Positions 13,979 through 52,872 of a stretch of DNA of 64,000 nt are shown here, one piece after another. The DNA is taken from positions 20,792 to 84,791 of the forward strand of contig CACOMO010000003.1 in the NCBI GenBank assembly GCA_902628335.1, written 5' to 3'. Source of the DNA: an uncultured Gammaproteobacteria bacterium. Lineage in GTDB: Bacteria; Pseudomonadota; Gammaproteobacteria; GCA-002705445; GCA-002716945. Made by a program: the position numbers and the translations under genes. Each line of letters begins with the position of its first letter. Position 1 is the first letter of the stretch. The notes under the pieces were generated by a model. It saw only the letters and a list, made by a program, of their open reading frames with translations. It was not told where the DNA came from and ran no database searches.

Positions 13979-14025
13979 ATTTATCTCTTGAGTTTTTTTT
14001 ATCATACCACACAGTCACTATTATT

Positions 14026-14098
14026 CCTCCCCACCCGGACTCGAACCAGGAACTAAACCTTAGGAGGGTCTTGTTATATCCAGTTTAACTATGGGGAG
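14026..14098 (-). tRNA. tRNA-Arg (anticodon CCT)
   Basis: Hand-folded 73-nt cloverleaf: CTCCCCA TA GTTA AACTGGATA TAAC A AGACC CTCCTAA GGTTT AGTT CCTGG TTCGAGT CCGGG TGGGGAG G. No encoded CCA. Confidence 0.75.
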
Positions 14099-14144
14099 AA
14101 TACATAAAATTGTATATAAAAAACTTATGATGTACTATGTTTTT

Positions 14145-14795
14145 ATGATTATCCTTGCAATTGACTCCTCTAGTAAAGATTTGTCTTTATCATTAAGATC
14201 TGAGAAAGGTATAGAAACAAAAATATATCAGAAAGATGGCAAACACAGTGAAATATTTCTTCAAGCACTTAACGACCTGCTAGATACAAACAATATGCAG
14301 GCATCAGACTTATCAGGTATACTATTTAATAAAGGTCCTGCTAGTTTTACTGGTACTAGAGTCGCAGCTTCGTCACTTCAAGCAATTGGATACACTTTAA
14401 ACATACCAATAGTGGGTATCTCATCTTTAGAGGTAATGGCTTATGTATATTCATCAGATTCTAATATGACTAGGTTTGAGTGTGCCAAGTACGCTTATGG
14501 TGATAGATATTTTACTGCTTCATTCGAAAAATCAAAAAAGTTATATCAAATCAAAGACACATTACTATCTGATATTAAAATGATAAACATATCACATAAT
14601 GAGCACCTCGTTTTAAATACTGAACTTTCTAAATACATCGAGAGAAAATGTATACCTATAACATACGATCACACAATTTTATCACGAGAGACAAATAGTG
14701 AGGATTTAATATCTTTTGCAGAAAAGTATATAAATCTTGGCAGTGAATTCAAACTTTCTGATACACTGCCTGATTATGCAAATCACGAAATTTAG
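14145..14795 (+). CDS. tsaB: tRNA threonylcarbamoyladenosine biosynthesis protein TsaB
   Basis: MIILAIDSSSKDLSLSL start typical of TsaB, then GPASFTGTRV. The track start (14091) would overlap tRNA-Arg, so the start was moved to the ATG at 14145. Confidence 0.85.
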   Translation: MIILAIDSSSKDLSLSLRSEKGIETKIYQKDGKHSEIFLQALNDLLDTNNMQASDLSGILFNKGPASFTGTRVAASSLQAIGYTLNIPIVGISSLEVMAYVYSSDSNMTRFECAKYAYGDRYFTASFEKSKKLYQIKDTLLSDIKMINISHNEHLVLNTELSKYIERKCIPITYDHTILSRETNSEDLISFAEKYINLGSEFKLSDTLPDYANHEI

Positions 14796-46109: not shown

Positions 46110-46238
46110 AAATAATATAATATCATCTATATATGGCTTGTTGAAAGAAAACTAGATGTTATCATGAATATATAACTTACATAATAAGAGTTATATTTGA
46201 ACATTGACTTTAAATGATGATTGTTACAAGGAGTTAAC

Positions 46239-47435
46239 ATGAAAATACTTTGCATATTATATGATGATCCAAAAGATGGGATGCCAAAATCATATCCATT
46301 AAATGAGCTACCTAGGATAGAGAAATATCCGGATGGCATGACATTACCGTCCCCAAAAGGTAGGGACTTCAATCCAGGAGAACTTTTAGGCTGTGTATCT
46401 GGAGAGCTGGGATTAAGGAAATTTCTAGAACAGAATGGTCATGAATTTTTTGTTACTTCAGATAAAGATGGCGAAGGTTGTGAGGCAGACAAGCATCTTG
46501 TTGATGCAGATATTGTTATATCTCAACCATTTTTTCCATATTATCTTACAAAAGACAGGATAGAGAGAGCGTCTAAACTTAAACTAGCTATCACAGCAGG
46601 CATCGGCTCTGATCATGTTGACTTGCAAGCTGCTATGGATAATAACATTGATGTAGTTGAGGTCACGTACTGTAATTCACGCTCAGTGGCTGAACATATT
46701 GTCATGATGATTTTGTCAATGGTCAGAGATTATCACACACAACATAGCATTGTGAAAGCTGGAGGCTGGAATATCGCAGATGCGGTAAAAAGGAGTTATG
46801 ACGTGGAGGGTATGCATATTGGCACTGTTGCAGCAGGGAGAATTGGTTTAGATGCTTTGAGAAAACTCAAGCCATTTGACGTCCATCTCCATTATTTTGA
46901 CAGACATAAACTACCGGATTCTATTGAGAAAGAGTTAAATCTAACATTTCATGAGTCAGTTGAGTCTATGGTCGAGATCTGTGATGTGGTGACTATTAAC
47001 TGTCCACTTCATCCTGAGACTGAAAATCTTTTTGATAAAGAACTTATTAGCAAGATGAAAAGAGGGGCATATATTATAAATACTGCTAGAGGGAAGATAT
47101 GTAACAGAGAAGCTATTGCGGAAGCACTATCTATCGGACAACTATCTGGTTATGCGGGTGATGTCTGGTTTCCTCAGCCTGCACCTAATGATCATGTCTG
47201 GAGAAGTATGCCTCATCAAGGTATGACGCCACATACATCGGGGACCTCACTATCTGCCCAAACTAGATATGCTGATGGAGTTAGAGAAATTTTAGAGTGT
47301 TTTTTTGATGGTAAACCTATTAGGGATGAATATCTTATTGTATCAGATGGTAATTTAGCTGGAACAGGTGCACATAGTTATAGTAAAGGTTCTGCAACCA
47401 AGGGTTCTGAAGAGGCTGCTGATTTTAAAAAATAA
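46239..47435 (+). CDS. fdh: NAD-dependent formate dehydrogenase
   Basis: Near end-to-end similarity to soluble NAD+-FDH: MKILCILYDDP.DG.PK.Y, VISQPF.P.YLT, TAGIGSDHVDL, GTVAAGRIGL, GYAGDVWFPQPAP, C-terminal GTGAHSYSKG.AT.GSEEAA.FKK. The start at the ATG is preceded by AAGGAG. Confidence 0.95.
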   Translation: MKILCILYDDPKDGMPKSYPLNELPRIEKYPDGMTLPSPKGRDFNPGELLGCVSGELGLRKFLEQNGHEFFVTSDKDGEGCEADKHLVDADIVISQPFFPYYLTKDRIERASKLKLAITAGIGSDHVDLQAAMDNNIDVVEVTYCNSRSVAEHIVMMILSMVRDYHTQHSIVKAGGWNIADAVKRSYDVEGMHIGTVAAGRIGLDALRKLKPFDVHLHYFDRHKLPDSIEKELNLTFHESVESMVEICDVVTINCPLHPETENLFDKELISKMKRGAYIINTARGKICNREAIAEALSIGQLSGYAGDVWFPQPAPNDHVWRSMPHQGMTPHTSGTSLSAQTRYADGVREILECFFDGKPIRDEYLIVSDGNLAGTGAHSYSKGSATKGSEEAADFKK

Positions 47436-47458
47436 AAAATTGATTCTTTAAAAAAAGT

Positions 47459-48496
47459 TTAACTCAAATAATTTGATGTTTGCATTTCAGACAATCTGCT
47501 TTTGCATCTATCCCAAAGGATTTTGAGTTTTTCACCAGTATACAAATTCTTATATGAGCAACTTCCAAAAAAAAACTTAATTCTAGTTCTATCTCTGTAG
47601 CAGACATCTATAAAAGATATAAATCTTCTGATGATATCAGCGGATTCATCATCACAGACTCTAAAATCATTCAAAAATATCCATTCCATTTTTTTCGATA
47701 ACTCAATATAGTCGTCTGAACCATTAGGTTCAGAGAAAAAGATATTAAAAGATAACCAGATAAAGTCTTTTGAATAAGCTTTACAACTAAACTCTCTCGA
47801 GTTGATTTGAAATTTATTTTTATCATAATCCTTATTAAAAAAATTCTTTTCGATGACAATTTTTATTTCTTCATCTGTATAAACCTGGTTAAGTTTATCT
47901 TTATCTTCATTCACGATATTTCTTGCTCTATAATCAATCTCCCCATTTAATTCGTAAATATTGAAAGATTTAATTATAAGAGACATATCATCTATAAATT
48001 TTTTTCTTTGCAGACCATTTTTATAAAGATCATTCGGATGTACATTTGATGTCAAATAGAGAATAACACCTAAACGATTTAGATTGTCCAATAATTTTCC
48101 TACAATCATTGCGTCAGCTACATCTTCGACTTGAAATTCATCAATAAAAATTATTTCATATCTTTTATTTAATGATTGAGCTACTTTTTCTATTGGATTT
48201 TTTTTACCCGATAACGAGTATAACTGACTTTGAATGTCTTGCATAAAATCAATATAATGAAATATAGCCTTCTTACTCTGAATTGAATCTAGAAAAGATT
48301 TTGTCATTATAGTTTTACCTCTACCAACATCACCCCATATATAGAAATTTTTTTTATTTACTCTATTGTTCTTAAGTACATTAATCGAGGATTTATTTAT
48401 CGATAAACTATCTATCATTTCTTCTAATAGATCTGATTGAACTTGATTTACTTTAATCCCCTGATTTTTTAAATTATTTAATATTTTTTTAATCAT
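47459..48496 (-). CDS. zapE: AFG1-family ATPase ZapE
   Basis: Walker A YIWGDVGRGKT, Walker B IIFIDEFQVEDV, and the AFG1-type C-terminal region. The ATG at 48496 is preferred over the TTG at 48508. Confidence 0.85.
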   Translation of the reverse strand: MIKKILNNLKNQGIKVNQVQSDLLEEMIDSLSINKSSINVLKNNRVNKKNFYIWGDVGRGKTIMTKSFLDSIQSKKAIFHYIDFMQDIQSQLYSLSGKKNPIEKVAQSLNKRYEIIFIDEFQVEDVADAMIVGKLLDNLNRLGVILYLTSNVHPNDLYKNGLQRKKFIDDMSLIIKSFNIYELNGEIDYRARNIVNEDKDKLNQVYTDEEIKIVIEKNFFNKDYDKNKFQINSREFSCKAYSKDFIWLSFNIFFSEPNGSDDYIELSKKMEWIFLNDFRVCDDESADIIRRFISFIDVCYRDRTRIKFFFGSCSYKNLYTGEKLKILWDRCKSRLSEMQTSNYLS

Positions 48497-48509
48497 TTTG
48501 ATTCCCAAT

Positions 48510-48561
48510 TACCACTGATCGGACTCGAACCGATACTCTCTTGCGAGAAAGGGATTTTGAG
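48510..48561 (-). pseudogene. Detached 3' half of tRNA-Leu(CAA): anticodon loop to discriminator
   Basis: The minus strand reads CTCAAAA TCCCT TTCTCGCAAGAGAGT ATCGG TTCGAGT CCGAT CAGTGGT A. There is no matching D arm or acceptor 5' strand adjacent. The complementary 5' half is at 50989-51027. Confidence 0.85.
48554..48561. repeat. Left copy of the 8-bp direct repeat ATTTTGAG (island junction)
   Basis: An identical 8-mer occurs at 50988-50995. On the tRNA strand it is CTCAAAAT, i.e. the anticodon loop plus one base. Confidence 0.65.
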
Positions 48562-48596
48562 AACATCGTTCCTATGAACCCCACATTTTCGATATT

Positions 48597-48626
48597 TTAA
48601 CATTCATTTGTACTTTGTGTTATAAT
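48597..48626 (+). promoter_or_regulatory. Candidate sigma70 promoter of the island operon
   Basis: TTAACA (48597-48602), an 18-nt spacer, then TGtTATAAT with an extended -10 (TATAAT at 48621-48626). Lies 55 nt upstream of the ORF at 48682. Confidence 0.4.
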
Positions 48627-48628
48627 AA

Positions 48629-48660
48629 AAGTGTAAGTTTTCGTTTAGAAAATCACACTT
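48629..48660. promoter_or_regulatory. Imperfect palindrome (candidate operator) between promoter and first island ORF
   Basis: AAGTGTAAGTTTTC gttta GAAAATCACACTT. The arms match except for one mismatch and one indel. It starts 3 nt after the -10 element. Confidence 0.4.
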
Positions 48661-48681
48661 AACTAACTACAGGAGTAATCT

Positions 48682-48900
48682 ATGTCAGAATGTTTAGTGA
48701 TACCACCAACTGTAATCAATAATACTATTGTCGCCTTATCAAAAGACAAAATGTGCACTGTTTTCTGGAGTGAGAAATCTAAATCATTTGAATCTGCTGA
48801 GGGTATCTATACAGTTGCTGAAGTTGCAGATGCTACGCCTGCGTCAGAAAATATCATAAAGTCAAAAGGCGTACTATTCAATTTAGCAAATAATTCGTAA
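48682..48900 (+). CDS. Hypothetical 72-aa protein, first gene of the island operon
   Basis: Strong RBS (ACAGGAG, 7 nt, ATG). Same strand as the methyltransferase and 17 nt upstream of it. No HTH or other family recognisable. Confidence 0.5.
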   Translation: MSECLVIPPTVINNTIVALSKDKMCTVFWSEKSKSFESAEGIYTVAEVADATPASENIIKSKGVLFNLANNS

Positions 48901-48917
48901 AGTCAGAGAAACTATAA

Positions 48918-49904
48918 ATGTACAAAGTGGGTGGATTATTTTCTGGAGTCGGCGGTATCGAACTTGGGTTTAAAAACCAAGGATTCGATATACGTTGGGC
49001 AAATGATAACGACATTCACTGTTCTAAAACCTATAAGATAAACCATAAACATAAATACATTCTAAAAGATATTCATAAATTAAGTGCCTCAGAACTAGAA
49101 CCTGTTGATGTAATGACTGGAGGTTTCCCATGCCAAGCATTCTCTGTTGCTGGTTATCGAAAAGGATTAAAAGATGAGAGAGGCAATCTCTTTTTTGAAA
49201 TTCTAAGACTGATAGATGAATTTAATAATCCACCCAAAGTACTACTCCTTGAAAATGTAAAAAACTTTTCTACTCATGATAAAGGTAGAACTCTCAAAAT
49301 TTTAAGAGAAGAATTAGAAAATCGTGATTACTGTGTATTTAATCATGTGCTCAATACTGCAGACTACACATCGATTCCTCAAAATAGAGAAAGAACATTT
49401 ATTATTTGTTTTCGTGAGGGTAGGGATGCTTATTTAGATTCAACACAACCTATGACAACTAAGTTTAGAATGTCCTTTCCCCCAAGGAAGAATAACAACA
49501 AAACTGATTTTAAAACGTTACTAGAGAAAAATGTTGATGAGAAATATTACTATCGCGATGATAAGTATATGTATAAAGACTTAATAAATGATATGAAATC
49601 TAAAGATACTTTTTATCAGTGGAGAAGACAGTATGTTCGTGAAAACAAAAGTCAATTATGCCCAACGTTAACTGCCAATATGGGAACAGGAGGTCATAAT
49701 GTTCCATTAATTCTTACAGATAAAGGGATACGTAAACTTACACCAAAAGAGTGTTTTTTGTTACAAGGATTTCCAAAGAGTTTTAAACTTCCAAAAGAGT
49801 CACCAAATGGTCAATTATATAAACAATCTGGTAACTCAGTAACAGTTAAACTAATTGAGGTACTAGCAAAAATCATAAAATCATGCTTAGATAAAAAAGT
49901 GTAA
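48918..49904 (+). CDS. DNA (cytosine-5)-methyltransferase (type II)
   Basis: A full C5-MTase motif set in order: I LFSGVGGIELGF, IV GGFPCQAFSVAG, VI LLENVKNF, VIII QNRERTFI, IX RKLTPKECFLLQGFP, X QSGNSVTV. The variable TRD lies between VIII and IX. Confidence 0.93.
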   Translation: MYKVGGLFSGVGGIELGFKNQGFDIRWANDNDIHCSKTYKINHKHKYILKDIHKLSASELEPVDVMTGGFPCQAFSVAGYRKGLKDERGNLFFEILRLIDEFNNPPKVLLLENVKNFSTHDKGRTLKILREELENRDYCVFNHVLNTADYTSIPQNRERTFIICFREGRDAYLDSTQPMTTKFRMSFPPRKNNNKTDFKTLLEKNVDEKYYYRDDKYMYKDLINDMKSKDTFYQWRRQYVRENKSQLCPTLTANMGTGGHNVPLILTDKGIRKLTPKECFLLQGFPKSFKLPKESPNGQLYKQSGNSVTVKLIEVLAKIIKSCLDKKV

Positions 49905-49921
49905 TTTTTTTAAGAGATTTT

Positions 49922-50734
49922 ATGATTATAAGTCGTCTTACCCTTCCAGAACTTACTCAAATATTTAATAAAGATGCTCAAAGCGTAATAAGTTATTTTA
50001 TTTTTAAAGCAGTAATATCACAACCCGAATTGATAAAAGGGCAAGTTACGAATCCTATACAGATTCCGAAAGAGCACATTGAACAATGGGGTGTTCAAGC
50101 GCTTGGTTTAAATTCTATAGGAGCAGGGAGTTATCCAATAGACCTAATAGAGAAAAATCAAAAATATGGTGCGGATATTAAAATGTTATCTTGGGGTGGA
50201 TCGAAAAAACAATCAGGAGAGACATCATTAGGTCAAAAATTTGTTGATAGTAATTTAGATAAACTATTTTTAGAAAAACGTTACGACGATATAGTCAGAT
50301 CATGGGTTAAAATTCTCGATGACAAATTTAATATGCTCTTTAAAAATCATCCTAACCTTACAAATATTTATTATTTTATATTTATTCGTGATGGAAAAAA
50401 GTTTCATATTTGTGGCATGAAGGTTGATACTTCTAGTTTTTCTTCGATGATAACTGGTAAGACTTCAAGAGACTCGGTATGGGTCAATAATTTTATTGAC
50501 AGTAAATATGGACAAATAAAGATATATAAAGCAAAAAAAAGAATGGAGTTAAGACTTCTACCTCATCAGTGGATTGAAGATAATTTAGTGATAACATTCG
50601 ATATTAAAGATTATAATATATCATCAAGAGATATTATTAATTTAACTGTTTCTGAAAGATATAAATCTTATAAAGATGACTTTATAAAACTATTCAATGC
50701 ATACTGTAATTATACTGAAGATGAAAATAAATGA
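49922..50734 (+). CDS. Putative type II restriction endonuclease (cognate of the adjacent methyltransferase)
   Basis: Lies 17 nt downstream of the MTase on the same strand. No family recognised. A candidate PD-(D/E)xK-like arrangement is YPID(74)...GAD(85)IK(87). The assignment rests on context. Confidence 0.5.
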   Translation: MIISRLTLPELTQIFNKDAQSVISYFIFKAVISQPELIKGQVTNPIQIPKEHIEQWGVQALGLNSIGAGSYPIDLIEKNQKYGADIKMLSWGGSKKQSGETSLGQKFVDSNLDKLFLEKRYDDIVRSWVKILDDKFNMLFKNHPNLTNIYYFIFIRDGKKFHICGMKVDTSSFSSMITGKTSRDSVWVNNFIDSKYGQIKIYKAKKRMELRLLPHQWIEDNLVITFDIKDYNISSRDIINLTVSERYKSYKDDFIKLFNAYCNYTEDENK

Positions 50735-50781
50735 AAGGATATTAAAATCAATATAATGAAGAAGAAAAATCTTTTCTAAAA

Positions 50782-50861
50782 TAGCGTGGGAGGGACTCGA
50801 ACCCTCAACCCGAAGGAGCAGGTTTTGAATCTGCCGTGTATACCAATTCCACCACCACGCC
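50782..50861 (-). tRNA. tRNA-Leu (anticodon CAA), intact, carried inside the insertion
   Basis: Hand-folded 80-nt class II cloverleaf: GGCGTGG TG GTG GAATTGGTATA CAC G GCAGA TTCAAAA CCTGC TCCTTCGGGTT GAGGG TTCGAGT CCCTC CCACGCT A. There is one A31-C39 mismatch and a G1-U72 pair. Confidence 0.85.
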
Positions 50862-50987
50862 ATTAATTTAATACTATCAAAATACAAACATTTACAACAG
50901 GCGTTTGTCATTACGAATGTTTGTCAAATGATTGTGATAATACTCTCGAAACTTTAATAAAACAAAGGGATATTAAATTACTTATTT

Positions 50988-50995
50988 ATTTTGAG
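50988..50995. repeat. Right copy of the 8-bp direct repeat ATTTTGAG (island junction)
   Basis: Identical to 48554-48561. It overlaps the anticodon loop of the orphan 5' tRNA half. Confidence 0.65.
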
Positions 50996-51027
50996 TCCCT
51001 CGTGTCTACCAATTTCACCACAGTGGC
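50989..51027 (-). pseudogene. Detached 5' half of tRNA-Leu(CAA): acceptor 5' strand to anticodon loop
   Basis: The minus strand reads GCCACTG TG GTG AAATTGGTAGA CAC G AGGGA CTCAAAA and is then followed by AT-rich non-tRNA sequence. It is complementary to the 3' half at 48510-48561. Confidence 0.85.
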
Positions 51028-51036
51028 ATACAAAAT

Positions 51037-51065
51037 ATTGTAACAAATAACTCATCGTCATGAAA
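51037..51065 (-). promoter_or_regulatory. Candidate native promoter of the split tRNA-Leu gene
   Basis: The minus strand reads TTTCAT, a 17-nt spacer, then TGTTACAAT (extended -10), ending 9 nt before the tRNA 5' end. Such matches are common in AT-rich DNA. Confidence 0.3.
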
Positions 51066-51087
51066 TCTATGATATATTTACTTATGT

Positions 51088-51291
51088 ATGAACGAATTTA
51101 ATACATACTGGATAATAAGTGGTCTTATAATATTTTTGCTTATCGTTTACATCATTAAGCAGATAAGGTTGGAAAAAGAAATTGCCCTCAAAGACACTAC
51201 CCTCGAGAGTCTCGAGGAGAAGCTTAAAAAGCACAAACTAGTTGGCGGTCGACACAAGAGAACCAACAAGAAAAATCCACCAATAGTCTAA
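51088..51291 (+). CDS. Hypothetical small membrane protein (N-terminal TM, charged helix, basic tail)
   Basis: 67-aa ORF: YWIISGLIIFLLIVYII, then LEKEIALKDTTLESLEEKLKKHK. No family recognised. Contains a GC-rich palindrome. Confidence 0.4.
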   Translation: MNEFNTYWIISGLIIFLLIVYIIKQIRLEKEIALKDTTLESLEEKLKKHKLVGGRHKRTNKKNPPIV

Positions 51292-51732
51292 TTATTTTTG
51301 TAGTTTCGCTGCCTGAGCTTTCTTTGCCATCTCTGGTGTGTAAGCTCCGCCTGACCACAACATCTCATAGACTATCTCTTCATTTCCATTTTCACAAATG
51401 TCTATGACTCTTTGAAATAGAGGCTGGAACGTCTCGCTTTTATGTGATTCTTCATGATCTTCATACGATTTCCAAAAAGTGATTATTAGTGCTTCTCGAC
51501 CTTTTAGTTCCGAATCAAGCGCCTTACCAACATTGCTACCTTCATTAGAGATCTGACCACTGTTTAGAACTACCATGCCACCAATAAATCCTGTTTCAGA
51601 ATGATATGTTTTGACATTCTCGCACATTTCAGCGACACGCATTTGAAGATCATCTGTGGTATAACCATCTTTTAGTATGACTCTATTTACTGTCACAATC
51701 CCATCATACGGGAAGTTATTTATTAAACTCAT
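51292..51732 (-). CDS. Hypothetical protein, possibly ABM / dimeric alpha-beta-barrel-like
   Basis: 146-aa ORF. The segment ALIITFWKSYEDHEESHKSETFQPLF resembles ABM-domain monooxygenase-like proteins. The similarity is weak and judged by eye only. Confidence 0.4.
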   Translation of the reverse strand: MSLINNFPYDGIVTVNRVILKDGYTTDDLQMRVAEMCENVKTYHSETGFIGGMVVLNSGQISNEGSNVGKALDSELKGREALIITFWKSYEDHEESHKSETFQPLFQRVIDICENGNEEIVYEMLWSGGAYTPEMAKKAQAAKLQK

Positions 51733-51831
51733 ATAGTTATTAGAGCAAAATATGCATCTGAAATCAATATAAGTATTTGCTAATATTCAGCATAGTTGAC
51801 TTGGTCTAGATTCAGAGTACCATCCAATATC

Positions 51832-52872
51832 ATGAAATTTCGCTCTATAGACGATTATAATTTTGAATTACCCACAGATTTGATAGCAAATTTTCCCAAA
51901 GAAAAGCGCTCTGATTCTAGACTCTTGTGTTATAGCCATAAGAGAGATAGTTTATCTCATAAAACTTTCAGTGATATATGTAATTTAGTTGATTGTGGAG
52001 ATGTAATAATTCTCAATGATACTAGAGTAATTCCAGCGAGAATGAATTTAAAAAAAAGCAGCGGTGGAGCTGTCGAGATATTATTTATGAATTGCAAAAG
52101 TAATAAGGCATTTACAGTAATTTACAAATCATCACGACCACCAAAAATAGATGCAATATTGACCGATAATAATTTGAGATTTCAGGTTTTGGAGGTTAAA
52201 AAGAACACACTACTTTTATTAAACTTAAATAATTTAGATATTCTAGAAATTTTAGATAAATATGGTAACATCCCACTTCCGAAGTACATCAAGAGAGATA
52301 GTAATTTACAAGATAGAGAAAAGTATCAAACAGTGTTTGCAAGAAAAAAAGGATCTATAGCAGCACCGACAGCTGGTTTACATTTTACAAAAGATATGAT
52401 TCAGAGACTTGAAACCAAAGGCGTCAAAGTAGAATATATAACACTACATATCAGTTACAATACTTTCAAACCTATAACTTCTGATAATTATCTTAGTCAT
52501 GATATAGGATTTGAAAAATTTAGTGTCAATACTAAAACATTTAATATGATAGAAAAAGCAAAAAAAAATAAAAATAAAGTTATTGCTGTGGGCACTACAG
52601 TCACAAGAGCTTTGGAGCATTGTTATCAGAATAATATAAAAGAAACATACAGTGGAGAGACTAACTTATTTATTTATCCTGGTTTTGAATTCAAAGCAAT
52701 TAATTGCTTAATTACAAACTTTCACTTACCAAAATCATCATTGTTGCTCCTAGTCGCAGCTTTTATCGGTAGATCTCGTATACTATCACTCTATAGAATG
52801 GCAATAGACAAAAAATATAAATTCTATAGTTATGGTGATAGTATGTTTCTCAATAGGAATCATGAAATTTAA
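51832..52872 (+). CDS. queA: S-adenosylmethionine:tRNA ribosyltransferase-isomerase
   Basis: The start MKFRSIDDYNFELPTDLIANFP..KRSDSRLL aligns with the QueA N-terminus. Also AAPTAGLHFT, VGTTVTRALE, SYGDSMF. The track start at 51796 (TTG) is over-extended. Confidence 0.93.
   Translation: MKFRSIDDYNFELPTDLIANFPKEKRSDSRLLCYSHKRDSLSHKTFSDICNLVDCGDVIILNDTRVIPARMNLKKSSGGAVEILFMNCKSNKAFTVIYKSSRPPKIDAILTDNNLRFQVLEVKKNTLLLLNLNNLDILEILDKYGNIPLPKYIKRDSNLQDREKYQTVFARKKGSIAAPTAGLHFTKDMIQRLETKGVKVEYITLHISYNTFKPITSDNYLSHDIGFEKFSVNTKTFNMIEKAKKNKNKVIAVGTTVTRALEHCYQNNIKETYSGETNLFIYPGFEFKAINCLITNFHLPKSSLLLLVAAFIGRSRILSLYRMAIDKKYKFYSYGDSMFLNRNHEI

What the first reader, a model, noticed from the sequence alone, without database searches (positions are those of the whole stretch)
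48510..51027. tRNA-Leu(CAA) gene split exactly in its anticodon loop by a 2.4-kb integrase-less insertion
**Seen directly.**
- Minus strand 51027->50989 reads GCCACTG TG GTG AAATTGGTAGA CAC G AGGGA CTCAAAA. That is the acceptor 5' strand, D arm, anticodon 5' stem and loop. After that it loses all tRNA character.
- About 2.4 kb away, minus strand 48561->48510 reads CTCAAAA TCCCT TTCTCGCAAGAGAGT ATCGG TTCGAGT CCGAT CAGTGGT A. That is the loop, anticodon 3' stem, a long variable arm with a TCTC/GAGA stem, the T arm, the acceptor 3' strand and the discriminator.
- The two halves are mutually complementary: AGGGA/TCCCT pairs 5/5, and GCCACTG/CAGTGGT gives six Watson-Crick pairs plus G1-U72. Joined, they form one 84-nt class II tRNA-Leu(CAA).
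- The 8-mer CTCAAAAT (plus strand ATTTTGAG) sits at both junctions, so the breakpoint or duplication lies in the anticodon loop.

**Why it is unusual.** Anticodon loops are a known crossover site for tyrosine-integrase islands. Here neither junction regenerates the tRNA. The 2426 bp between the repeats also encodes no integrase, transposase or excisionase. This departs from the usual integrate-and-restore pattern.
Basis: seen in the sequence. Interest (0 to 1): 0.85.

Follow-up and report, generated by a model that had tools for sequence, protein, structure and literature searches.

The report
Mini-island splits and replaces tRNA-Leu
A 2.4-kb restriction-modification mini-island sits in the anticodon loop of a marine bacterium's leucine tRNA gene, breaking it but bringing its own intact copy; some phages and conjugative elements do the same, but this element is unusually small, has no integrase and recurs in relatives.

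Summary
The two tRNA-Leu(CAA) halves lie where stated, and deleting 48562-50995 in silico gives a tRNA-Leu(CAA). Ten conspecific Tara contigs (99.4-99.8% identical) carry the uninterrupted gene. The alignments break exactly at an 8-bp duplication (CTCAAAAT), so the insert is 2,426 bp.

The insert carries its own intact tRNA-Leu(CAA) gene with a promoter (50781-50862, minus strand), 125 nt inside the junction and in the same orientation. The remaining cargo is a small ORF, a C5 DNA methyltransferase and a restriction-enzyme-family protein. No integrase or transposase is encoded anywhere in the 64-kb window.

The event is not a one-off. Related genomes have other small integrase-less restriction cassettes at the same anticodon-loop position. 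Some occur singly, some in tandem arrays, and one is nested inside an element-borne tRNA. They share a conserved tRNA module and a conserved left module (with orf72), but the R-M cargo differs.

The most likely mechanism is tyrosine-recombinase-type site-specific recombination across the 7-nt anticodon loop, with the recombinase supplied in trans. "Short core plus own tRNA" is already known from Pasteurellaceae ICEs and from mycobacteriophage tRNA-dependent lysogeny. I therefore rate this a new variant of a known kind, of moderate interest.

The parts
50988..51027 (-). 5' half of the resident tRNA-Leu(CAA): acceptor 5' strand, D arm, anticodon 5' stem and loop. It still lies behind the native extended -10 promoter (TGTTACAAT, about 51040-51048).
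   Evidence: It is 100% identical to the 5' half of the intact genes in L001-L004 and L125-L143.
50988..50995 (.). Right copy of the 8-bp direct repeat (plus strand ATTTTGAG, tRNA strand CTCAAAAT). It comprises the 7-nt anticodon loop plus 1 nt and is the crossover core.
   Evidence: 8-bp overlap of the two flank alignments on the empty-site contigs.
48554..48561 (.). Left copy of the 8-bp direct repeat.
48510..48561 (-). 3' half of the resident tRNA-Leu(CAA): loop, anticodon 3' stem, variable arm, T arm, acceptor 3' strand and A73. It is displaced next to zapE.
   Evidence: No substitution relative to the intact genes, so the insertion is recent.
48562..50987 (.). The inserted element: 2,426 bp, GC about 31% like its flanks.
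50781..50862 (-). Intact element-borne tRNA-Leu(CAA), a class II tRNA with G1.U72 and A73. It has the same orientation as the split gene and is the functional replacement.
   Evidence: ARAGORN; Rfam tRNA 52.2 bits against a gathering score of 29. A 55-nt stretch covering most of the gene is identical to the resident tRNA of MAG NAT245 (L042); the acceptor stem differs by compensatory changes. Covariation.
50863..50987 (-). Right-end module. It contains a spacer with TCCCTTT (50970->50964), motif copies CACAATCATT / ACAAACATT (50936->50916) and GACAAACG (50909->50902), an inverted copy AAATGTTTGT (50893->50884), and an extended -10 TGATAGTAT (50879->50871).
   Evidence: Homologous modules precede element-borne tRNA-Leu(CAA) genes in L133 and L157, and twice in L206.
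49922..50734 (+). 270-aa putative type II restriction endonuclease.
   Evidence: No Pfam, NCBIfam or PADLOC family. More than 300 homologs. Most fetched loci, about 100 of 118, have a Dcm-type methyltransferase homolog within the fetched stretch, usually adjacent. Invariant D74, D85-x-K87 and E100. AF2 pLDDT 91. The best but non-significant fold hits are DpnI, HincII and EcoRV.
48918..49904 (+). C5 cytosine DNA methyltransferase (328 aa).
   Evidence: PF00145 7e-81; TIGR00675; PADLOC MTase_II 3e-102; M.HhaI and M.HaeIII in PDB.
48682..48900 (+). orf72, a small protein of unknown function and the first gene of the orf72-M-R operon. It belongs to the conserved left module.
   Evidence: No family hit. 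Ten homologs among 1.8 billion representatives. About 80% identical to orf75 at the same position in the L206 island, which has a different R-M cargo. The AF2 single-sequence model is unreliable.
48562..48681 (+). Left-end module. It contains the conserved end sequence (tRNA strand AATGTGGGGTT at 48587->48577 ... GAACGATGTT) and a strong promoter-like site, TTAACA-18-TATAAT with TG (48597-48626), for orf72-M-R.
   Evidence: 11 of 12 promoter positions. 84% identity over 387 nt to the L206 island left end. Homologous to the left end of island X in L195/L201.

Best explanation
**What it is (shown).**
- The insert is a strain-specific, recently acquired, non-autonomous integrative mini-island.
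- The host is an uncultured marine gammaproteobacterium that looks SAR86-like. The clade was not verified.
- It occupies the 7-nt anticodon loop of the resident tRNA-Leu(CAA) gene.
- Element and target share only the loop (CTCAAAA plus T), so neither junction rebuilds the tRNA.
- The element instead carries a complete tRNA-Leu(CAA) gene with its own promoter, just inside the promoter-proximal junction.
- Its cargo is a type II restriction-modification operon: orf72, a C5 methyltransferase and a putative endonuclease.
- It belongs to a family of small modular cassettes. Members share a right tRNA module and a left orf72/end module, with interchangeable restriction cargo.
- These cassettes use the same site in related genomes, singly, in tandem arrays or nested within an earlier element's tRNA.
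- Sister cassettes at the same site carry a 40-52-nt tRNA 3' half and restore the gene in the classical way.

**How it got there (inferred).**
- Insertion was by conservative site-specific recombination of tyrosine-recombinase type.
- The anticodon loop served as the overlap region and the stems as inverted half-sites.
- The recombinase was supplied in trans, by an autonomous family member or another genomic locus not present in the data.
- The repeated ACAAACAT-type motifs may be accessory binding sites.
For: - **Precise insertion.** An 8-bp duplication and 10 conspecific contigs with the uninterrupted junction. One such contig (L141) has no SNPs in the 3 kb next to the junction, so no foreign flank was co-imported.
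- **Intact replacement tRNA.**. Across five tRNA variants, 13 of 23 pairs show compensatory changes and no acceptor-, D- or T-stem pair is broken.
- **Recurrence at the same nucleotide positions.**
  - L133, MAG SP3036.
  - L157.
  - L206, a single contig with both flanks and two nested tRNA modules.
  - L163 and at least 9 further contigs holding a restoring cassette.
  - The tandem array Z|X|Y in L195 and L201.
- **Conserved end modules with different R-M cargo.**
- **Variable repeat length.** The identity at the ends is 7, 8 or about 40-52 nt and always starts at the loop. This is typical of att-site identity, not of a transposase target duplication.
- **No terminal inverted repeats.**
- **Experimental precedents for the design.** Sibling elements with a short or a long core use one attB in PMC10865867. 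The same target is used in PMC6028734 and PMC6861422.
Against: - No recombinase gene was found in the window. All ORFs of 150 aa or more were checked with Pfam or by synteny.
- None was found in the fully sequenced family islands either (window, Y, X, L206).
- No circular or attP form was seen.
- Five IMG/VR scans for the joint, the tRNA 3' half and the modules gave nothing relevant.
- This exact island is absent from every other assembly searched. The closest R-M copy is 92% identical and lies on a 2.3-kb contig.
- The role of the repeated motifs is conjecture.
- The resemblance of the element's end regions to decayed tRNA halves is weak (p about 0.02 and 0.35).
Confidence: 0.6

Rival explanations
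1. No dedicated recombinase is involved. The cassettes spread by RecA-type homologous recombination after DNA uptake. The conserved tRNA halves (39 and 52 nt, identical across species), or longer flanks, act as portable homology arms. The original insertion happened long ago in another lineage.
For: - No integrase in any island.
- The N-type tRNA halves are 100% conserved across species whose flanks differ by 17-30%.
- A chimeric 3' half in L201 (N-type up to the T loop, then d1-type) shows homologous exchange between tRNA copies.
Against: - It does not explain how the structures first arose, or why every junction starts exactly at the loop.
- It does not explain nested insertion into a different, element-borne tRNA (L206) that shares only the loop.
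- It does not explain the junction in L195/L201, where only TCAAAAT is shared.
- Arms of 39-52 nt are near the minimum for efficient recombination (general knowledge).
Confidence: 0.15
2. The element moves by itself using a novel activity encoded on it, for example by the conserved backbone protein orf72 or by the endonuclease. The anticodon-loop core is the site of a staggered cut.
For: - orf72 and the left end are conserved (84% nt) between islands with unrelated R-M cargo.
- orf72 has no known family.
- Furuta et al. 2010 (PMC2853133) raised the possibility that R-M genes contribute to their own mobility.
Against: - orf72 is absent from island X in L201 and from island Y, which use the same site.
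- A 72-aa protein is too small for any known recombinase.
- The endonucleases differ between family members.
Confidence: 0.08
3. It is a transposon-like R-M unit mobilised by a DDE transposase in trans, and the 8-mer is a target-site duplication.
For: - The 8-bp direct repeat is identical to the single copy at the empty site.
- R-M units with 8-bp duplications are known (PMC2853133).
Against: - There are no terminal inverted repeats. The best inverted pair is subterminal and only 15 of 18 nt.
- At least five different elements use exactly the same position.
- The repeat length varies from 7 to about 52 nt.
- No transposase is encoded in the window.
Confidence: 0.05
4. It is an assembly chimera or a one-off illegitimate (microhomology) insertion of a random DNA fragment.
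For: - The exact island is seen only in this window.
- Reads could not be inspected.
Against: - Both junctions fall on the same 8-mer and leave both halves intact.
- Independent assemblies, including a contig with both flanks (L206), show the same architecture with homologous end modules.
Confidence: 0.04
5. It is a functional interrupted gene: a group I or II intron in the anticodon loop, or an archaeal-type split tRNA whose halves are joined at the RNA level.
For: Bacterial tRNA group I introns do lie in anticodon loops (general knowledge).
Against: - No Rfam family other than the internal tRNA matches 47500-52000 at E<=1, apart from a below-threshold mascRNA-menRNA hit on that same tRNA.
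- There is an 8-bp duplication, which introns do not make.
- The cargo genes are on the opposite strand.
- Conspecifics carry the uninterrupted gene.
Confidence: 0.01

Closest known systems
ICEPmu1 / ICEMh1 / ICEHin1056-type integrative conjugative elements of Pasteurellaceae (PMC6028734, PMC6861422)
   Same: - The target is the anticodon loop of the tRNA-Leu that reads UUG (anticodon CAA) in Gammaproteobacteria.
- The direct repeat is just the loop region (11-13 bp, GATTCAAAATC).
- Disrupted tRNA-Leu pieces remain at both ends.
- An intact tRNA-Leu at the end of the element replaces the disrupted gene.
   Different: - Those elements are 50-80-kb conjugative elements with XerD-like tyrosine recombinases, a relaxase and a type IV secretion system.
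- This element is 2.4 kb and has none of these.
- The repeat here is 8 bp (CTCAAAAT).
- Sequence homology of the ends could not be tested, because no Pasteurellaceae chromosomes are in the available collections.
tRNA-dependent lysogeny of mycobacteriophages such as Fionnbharth and Cluster L (PMC10865867)
   Same: - The common core is short (about 10 bp), so the host tRNA is not reconstructed.
- An element-encoded tRNA of the same isotype complements the loss.
- Sibling elements at the same attB have a long core (43 bp) that restores the tRNA. This parallels the restoring (L163, X) and non-restoring (window, L133, L157, L206) cassettes here.
- Putative arm-type sites flank the core.
   Different: - Those are complete temperate phages with their own tyrosine integrase, proven experimentally, and they target tRNA-Lys(TTT) in actinobacteria.
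- Here there is no integrase, no phage genes and no experiment.
Classical tRNA-gene genomic islands with an anticodon-loop crossover (Islander framework, PMC4383910)
   Same: - The island lies within a tRNA gene and is bounded by tRNA-derived repeats.
- The crossover is in the symmetric anticodon stem-loop.
- Tandem arrays form by repeated use of one site.
   Different: - The defining integrase gene is absent.
- The island does not regenerate the target with a partial copy.
Tycheposons and tRNA-seeded genomic islands of Prochlorococcus (bioRxiv 10.1101/2020.12.28.424599)
   Same: - The hosts are streamlined marine bacteria.
- Cargo or defence elements integrate at tRNA genes.
- Successive integrations push older elements inward.
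- Integrase-less remnants and partial tRNAs occur inside islands.
   Different: - Tycheposons target seven other tRNA/tmRNA genes, with att sites of about 40 nt that restore the gene.
- They are defined by a specific tyrosine recombinase and replication genes, none of which is present here.
Mobile forms of restriction-modification systems (Furuta et al. 2010, PMC2853133)
   Same: An R-M gene pair is the sole cargo of a small insertion that is flanked by direct repeats and absent from sister genomes.
   Different: The described forms have one of three features: long target duplications (over 30 bp), inverted-repeat ends with 8-bp duplications, or an adjacent integrase at a tRNA. None was reported with its own replacement tRNA.

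Membership tests
tRNA-targeting integrative genomic island (Islander-type) | Inserted within a tRNA gene and absent from close relatives (empty site) | tested here: met
tRNA-targeting integrative genomic island (Islander-type) | Ends marked by direct repeats derived from the tRNA gene | tested here: met
   8-bp CTCAAAAT at both ends. Sister cassettes have 40-52 nt.
tRNA-targeting integrative genomic island (Islander-type) | Tyrosine (or serine) integrase gene inside the island | tested here: not met
   Pfam, NCBIfam, PADLOC and PHROGs on all three ORFs. None elsewhere in the window.
tRNA-targeting integrative genomic island (Islander-type) | An island-borne partial tRNA regenerates the target gene at one junction | tested here: not met
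   Neither junction folds as a tRNA. A complete separate gene is carried instead.
ICEPmu1/ICEMh1/ICEHin1056 family | Integration in the anticodon loop of tRNA-Leu(CAA) with a loop-sized direct repeat | tested here: met
   The repeat is 8 bp here against 11-13 bp in the ICEs (PMC6861422).
ICEPmu1/ICEMh1/ICEHin1056 family | An intact tRNA-Leu at the element end replaces the disrupted gene | tested here: met
   PMC6028734.
ICEPmu1/ICEMh1/ICEHin1056 family | XerD-like integrase(s), relaxase and conjugation genes | tested here: not met
   only orf72, M, R and a tRNA within 2.4 kb.
ICEPmu1/ICEMh1/ICEHin1056 family | Sequence homology of att-proximal regions or of the tRNA module | not testable with these tools
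   No Pasteurellaceae ICE sequence is available; AJ627386 is not in the collections.
tRNA-dependent integration (as in mycobacteriophage tRNA-dependent lysogeny) | [quoted passage not shown] | tested here: met
tRNA-dependent integration (as in mycobacteriophage tRNA-dependent lysogeny) | The element tRNA is required for host viability (the host tRNA is single-copy and essential) | not testable with these tools
   Only one 64-kb window of the genome is available, and no experiment is possible.
tRNA-dependent integration (as in mycobacteriophage tRNA-dependent lysogeny) | An element-encoded tyrosine integrase catalyses the event | tested here: not met
Type II restriction-modification system | DNA methyltransferase with the catalytic motifs of a known class | tested here: met
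   PF00145 7e-81; TIGR00675; M.HhaI and M.HaeIII homology.
Type II restriction-modification system | Cognate restriction endonuclease next to it | tested here: inconclusive
   - The 270-aa family lies beside a Dcm-type methyltransferase homolog in most of about 120 fetched loci.
- It has invariant D...D-x-K...E residues.
- No profile hit.
- No significant fold match; the best is DpnI at E=0.036.
Transposon-like R-M unit (Furuta 2010) | Terminal inverted repeats of 26-65 bp inside the 8-bp duplication | tested here: not met
   and direct reading of the ends.
tRNA group I intron / split tRNA | Ribozyme fold or complementary leader sequences, with no target duplication | tested here: not met
   Rfam E-value scan; the 8-bp duplication.
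Tycheposon | Hallmark tyrosine recombinase and replication genes, with a partial-tRNA att site of about 40 nt | tested here: not met
   10.1101/2020.12.28.424599.

The most novel reading that the evidence does not exclude
These are a previously undescribed class of non-autonomous defence-gene cassettes. Their portable attachment site is a tRNA-Leu(CAA) gene copy with its promoter module. Each arrival splits the currently functional tRNA-Leu(CAA), whether resident or element-borne, and installs its own. The working gene at this locus would thus be replaced serially, a tRNA-gene ratchet. That would explain why closely related lineages carry such divergent tRNA-Leu(CAA) sequences. Mobilisation would depend on an unidentified recombinase encoded elsewhere, possibly a domesticated host one, or on a new activity involving the backbone protein orf72.
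Probability: 0.25. Interest if true: 0.75.

Novelty: new variant of a known kind. Interest (0 to 1): 0.5.

Why it matters
- **Scale.** The "break the tRNA and bring your own" integration strategy was known from 50-80-kb ICEs and whole phages. Here it operates at the scale of a 2.4-kb, integrase-free restriction cassette.
- **Host.** The host is an abundant, uncultured, genome-streamlined marine bacterium in which conventional mobile elements are rare.
- **Modularity.** The shared end modules, swappable R-M cargo, tandem arrays and nested insertions point to a cassette-like route by which defence genes move through ocean populations.
- **tRNA turnover.** The data suggest a way in which a tRNA gene can be replaced outright by mobile copies.
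- **Annotation.** tRNA halves next to an odd extra tRNA mark such islands. Integrase-based island finders will miss them.

Tried and rejected
- **Intron or ribozyme.** An Rfam E-value scan of 47500-52000 found only the internal tRNA, plus a below-threshold mascRNA-menRNA hit on that same tRNA.
- **Terminal inverted repeats or transposon ends.** None found.
- **General tRNA-Leu linkage of the R-M family.** 117 loci encoding homologs of the endonuclease were scanned. No tRNA-Leu lies near any of them, so the linkage is specific to this element family.
- **Exact-protein look-ups of the window's R and M.** Neither is on record.
- **Extending the closest R-M relative (L043) through its 422-aa neighbour.** No further contigs.
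- **IMG/VR scans.** The attP-like joint, the tRNA 3' half and two module patterns gave nothing. The 17 hits to a third pattern were all chance matches.
- **Integrase anywhere in the window.** None; every ORF tested is housekeeping.
- **Integrase among sister-island proteins** (322, 364, 138, 166, 461 and 422 aa). None by Pfam, PADLOC, PHROGs or PDB sequence search.
- **Island ends as decayed tRNA halves or promoter.** The right end against the 3' half gives p about 0.02. The left end against the promoter plus 5' half gives p about 0.35. This is too weak to rely on.
- **Fold assignment.** Inconclusive for the endonuclease. The orf72 model is unreliable at pLDDT 47.
- **Co-imported foreign flank.** No SNP cluster next to the junctions.
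- **Tycheposon membership.** Rejected after reading the preprint.

Full report
**1.

- On the minus strand, 51027->50988 reads as the acceptor 5' strand, D arm, anticodon 5' stem and loop of a class II tRNA.
- 48561->48510 reads as the loop, anticodon 3' stem, long variable arm, T arm, acceptor 3' strand and discriminator A.
- The 8-mer CTCAAAAT (plus strand ATTTTGAG) ends the first piece and starts the second.
- Deleting 48562-50995 in silico makes ARAGORN call a tRNA-Leu(CAA). Deletions one base off do not.
- The joined sequence is identical to the intact tRNA-Leu(CAA) at the syntenic position (SOR-like gene/queA on one side, zapE on the other) in four related GTDB genomes. Their flanks are only 70-83% identical to the window.

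**2. It is a recent, strain-specific insertion with exact boundaries**

- Exact-protein look-ups with the window's ZapE and its SOR-like neighbour retrieved Tara Oceans contigs 99.4-99.8% identical to the window.
- Seven of these carry the complete uninterrupted tRNA gene. Three more end just past the intact junction.
- The two flank alignments stop at window 48561 and 50988 and overlap by exactly 8 bp on the empty-site contigs.
- The event is therefore a 2,426-bp insertion plus an 8-bp duplication.
- Neither tRNA half has a single substitution.
- One empty-site contig (L141) has no SNP in the 3 kb next to the junction, so no foreign flank came in with the island.
- GC content does not differ from the surroundings.

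**3.

- ARAGORN finds an intact tRNA-Leu(CAA) inside the insert at 50781-50862 on the minus strand. Rfam scores it at 52 bits against a gathering score of 29.
- It has the same orientation as the split gene and lies 125 nt downstream of the orphan 5' half.
- It is preceded by an extended -10 element (TGATAGTAT).
- Five full tRNA-Leu(CAA) variants from this locus and from these elements were compared. Thirteen of 23 base pairs show double compensatory changes, no acceptor-, D- or T-stem pair is broken, and G1.U72 and A73 are invariant.
- The element-borne copies are thus under the constraints of working tRNAs. tRNA function is replaced, not lost.

**4. The cargo**

- On the plus strand, a strong promoter-like site lies at 48597-48626 (11 of 12 consensus positions plus TG). 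It precedes three genes.
- orf72 (48682-48900) matches no family and has ten homologs among 1.8 billion representatives.
- A C5 DNA methyltransferase lies at 48918-49904 (PF00145, 7e-81).
- A 270-aa protein lies at 49922-50734.
  - It matches no profile library.
  - It belongs to a family of more than 300 proteins. In most of about 120 fetched loci a Dcm-type methyltransferase homolog lies beside it.
  - D74, D85-x-K87 and E100 are invariant, as in a PD-(D/E)XK nuclease.
  - It folds confidently (pLDDT 91). Its best but non-significant structural neighbours are DpnI, HincII and EcoRV.
  - I read it as the restriction endonuclease of a type II system. This is inferred, not shown.
- There is no integrase, transposase or excisionase in the insert.
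- There is none among the other ORFs of 150 aa or more in the 64-kb window, which are all housekeeping genes (synteny annotation).

**5. The same site is used again and again in relatives**

- A scan for the 5' half followed by anything other than the tRNA's own next base, together with locus surveys through the SOR-like protein, found further occupied sites.
  - *L133 (MAG SP3036).* The 5' half and CTCAAAAT are followed by about 140 nt and then a different intact tRNA-Leu(CAA).
  - *L157.* The same arrangement with a third tRNA variant.
  - *L206 (one 22.6-kb contig with both flanks).* In tRNA direction it reads as follows:
    - the 5' half, the core and module A;
    - only the 5' half of an L133-type tRNA;
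    - the core again, module B and a complete tRNA-Leu(CAA);
    - a decayed core plus 3' half;
    - a DpnII-like R-M set (a REase at 1e-59 for its 92.5%-identical copy in L201, plus D12 and N6_N4 methyltransferases);
    - an orf72 homolog, the left end, the core and the 3' half.
  - *L163 and at least nine other contigs.* The gene is restored in the classical way by an element-borne 3' half that starts exactly at CTCAAAAT. A 1.65-kb two-gene cassette follows, encoding a nuclease-like protein (weak NOV_C match) and a protein with a weak methyl-directed-REase match. Then comes the displaced 3' half, often with a decay mutation.
  - *L195 and L201.* A tandem array Z|X|Y of such cassettes.
- None of the fully sequenced cassettes encodes an integrase.
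- The closest copy of the window's R-M genes (92% nt, L043) also lies beside the 3' end of a tRNA resembling the L133 type.

**6. The elements are related by descent and are modular**

- The roughly 125-nt region between the junction and the element tRNA is homologous in the window, L133, L157 and both L206 copies. Mean column identity among the window, L133 and L157 is 70%, and the L206 copies are about 82% identical to L133 and L157.
- Its parts, in order:
  - a spacer containing (A)CCCTT;
  - two direct copies of an (A)C(TC)AAACAT(T) motif;
  - an inverted copy, AAATGTTTGT;
  - an extended -10 element.
- The same motif pair and -10-like element precede a degenerate tRNA 5' half at the zapE-side end of cassettes Y and Z.
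- The window's left 330 nt (end sequence, promoter and orf72) is 84% identical to the left end of the L206 island, whose R-M cargo is unrelated.
- It is also homologous to the left end of cassette X.
- The backbone is thus a left module plus a right tRNA module, with interchangeable restriction cargo.

**7. Most likely mechanism**

- *Shown.*
  - Every junction begins at the anticodon loop.
  - The shared identity is 7 nt (L195/L201, L206), 8 nt (window) or 40-52 nt (restoring cassettes).
  - An element-borne tRNA can itself be the target (L206).
  - Arrays exist.
- *Inferred.*
  - Insertion is by conservative site-specific recombination of tyrosine-recombinase type.
  - The 7-nt loop acts as the overlap region and the anticodon stems as inverted half-sites.
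  - This geometry is long recognised for anticodon-loop att sites (general knowledge; PMC4383910).
  - Because no recombinase is on the element, it must act in trans, from an autonomous relative or another locus.
  - The repeated motifs are candidate accessory (arm-type) sites.
- *A parsing that fits all the structures.*
  - The window island can be read as a near-empty element fused to a restoring-type R-M cassette.
  - The near-empty element consists of the spacer, the module and a tRNA 5' half.
  - The shared junction of the two parts would then be the functional tRNA.
  - The composite arrived as one piece, since conspecifics have clean empty sites.
- I put 0.6 on this overall account.

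**8. Rivals**

- *Homologous exchange.* Exchange through the invariant tRNA halves or flanks could spread existing cassettes without any recombinase. A chimeric 3' half in L201 shows that such exchange happens. It cannot create the loop-precise junctions or the nested insertion (0.15).
- *Self-encoded novel activity.* An activity involving orf72 is not excluded, but orf72 is missing from cassettes X and Y (0.08).
- *DDE-type transposition.* Contradicted by the lack of inverted ends, the strict site specificity and the variable repeat length (0.05).
- *Chimera or random illegitimate insertion.* Unlikely given two concordant junctions and independent assemblies with the same architecture, but reads were not available (0.04).
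- *Intron or split-tRNA function.* Excluded by the Rfam scan, the duplication and the empty sites (0.01).

**9. Comparison with what is known**

- Pasteurellaceae ICEs (ICEPmu1, ICEMh1) use the same design.
  - They integrate in the anticodon loop of the tRNA-Leu that reads UUG, with an 11-13-bp repeat.
  - They leave disrupted tRNA pieces at both ends.
  - They carry an intact tRNA-Leu at the ICE end (PMC6028734, PMC6861422).
- Mycobacteriophage tRNA-dependent lysogeny shows the same logic experimentally.
  - A core of about 10 bp fails to rebuild the tRNA, and a phage tRNA of the same isotype complements the loss.
  - Sibling phages with a 43-bp core restore the gene at the same attB (PMC10865867).
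- The present element works like these but is not a member of either family. The defining integrase, conjugation or phage genes were tested for and are absent.
- It also fails the integrase and gene-regeneration criteria of Islander-type islands.
- It fails the hallmark-gene criteria of tycheposons.
- It fails the inverted-repeat criterion of transposon-like R-M units (PMC2853133).

**10. Verdict**

- What is new:
  - the miniature, integrase-less, modular form;
  - the restriction-only cargo;
  - recurrence, arrays and nested insertion in an uncultured marine gammaproteobacterial clade;
  - the implied turnover of the functional tRNA-Leu(CAA) gene.
- I rate it a new variant of a known kind, with interest 0.5.
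- The main gaps are the unidentified recombinase, the lack of read-level or circle evidence, and the lack of a complete genome to test whether the tRNA is single-copy.

Noticed in passing
window 50781-50862 and 48510-51027; L042, L133, L144-L153, L157, L206: The tRNA-Leu(CAA) at this one syntenic locus differs greatly among closely related lineages whose neighbouring SOR-like protein is 85-99% identical. Five different acceptor stems occur (GCCACTG, GGCGTGG, GGCGAAG, GGCGATA, GCTCGAG), all with compensatory partners, and all keep an unusual G1.U72 wobble pair. This fits replacement of the gene by mobile copies.
   Followed up: partly
L201 (reverse complement) about 1335-1390: A chimeric tRNA 3' half. 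The anticodon stem and variable arm are of the window's native type. The 3' strand of the T stem and the acceptor are of the island (d1) type. The switch falls at the shared GGTTCGAGTCC T-loop, a footprint of homologous exchange between tRNA copies in an array.
   Followed up: partly
L191, L193-L197, L199, L200 (zapE-side 3' half): The displaced 3' half behind the restoring cassette Y carries a G->A change in the T stem (GGTTCGAGTCCAA) in many assemblies. The restored copy stays intact. This shows which copy is under selection and that this insertion is older than the one in the window.
   Followed up: no
L163 3015-3035; L133 4932-4950; L206 13398-13414: Short tandem duplications of loop-like sequence lie right at some junctions: CTCAAAAAGA-CTCAAAAT, CTCAAAAT-GATTCAAAAC and TCAAAAT-GAT-TCAAAAT. 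They may be footprints of imprecise or successive recombination. They remain unexplained.
   Followed up: no
window 46221-48508 versus L042, L144-L153, L206: The NAD-dependent 2-hydroxyacid/formate dehydrogenase gene and zapE lie downstream of the tRNA in the window's lineage. They are absent at this position in three related lineages, where PfkB follows the tRNA directly. The tRNA's 3' flank is therefore a variable region on a longer time scale too.
   Followed up: no
window 51292-51732 (minus strand): A conserved 146-aa protein next to the tRNA has thousands of homologs. Some sources name it 'ligand-binding protein SH3'. It gives only a weak, sub-threshold match to sulphur oxygenase reductase (PF07682, 23 bits against a cut-off of 25). 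Its function is unclear.
   Followed up: no
L043 876-2144: A 422-aa ORF with no family and only two distant homologs lies between the 92%-identical copy of the R-M genes and a tRNA 3' end. It may be a further cargo or backbone gene of this element family.
   Followed up: partly
window 50884-50924; L133 5015-5055; L157; L206: A conserved 9-10-bp inverted repeat (ACAAACATT ... AAATGTTTGT, about 22-nt spacer) is followed by a T-run just upstream of the element tRNA promoter. It could be a protein-binding palindrome. It could also be a terminator that insulates the tRNA from read-through from the orphan 5' half. The three sequences show no covariation.
   Followed up: partly
window 14025-14099 and 14091-14795: The tRNA-Arg(CCT) gene (minus strand) overlaps by 9 nt the longest ORF of a TsaB/TsaD-family gene on the other strand. 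The true start codon is probably further downstream. No island is present at this tRNA.
   Followed up: no
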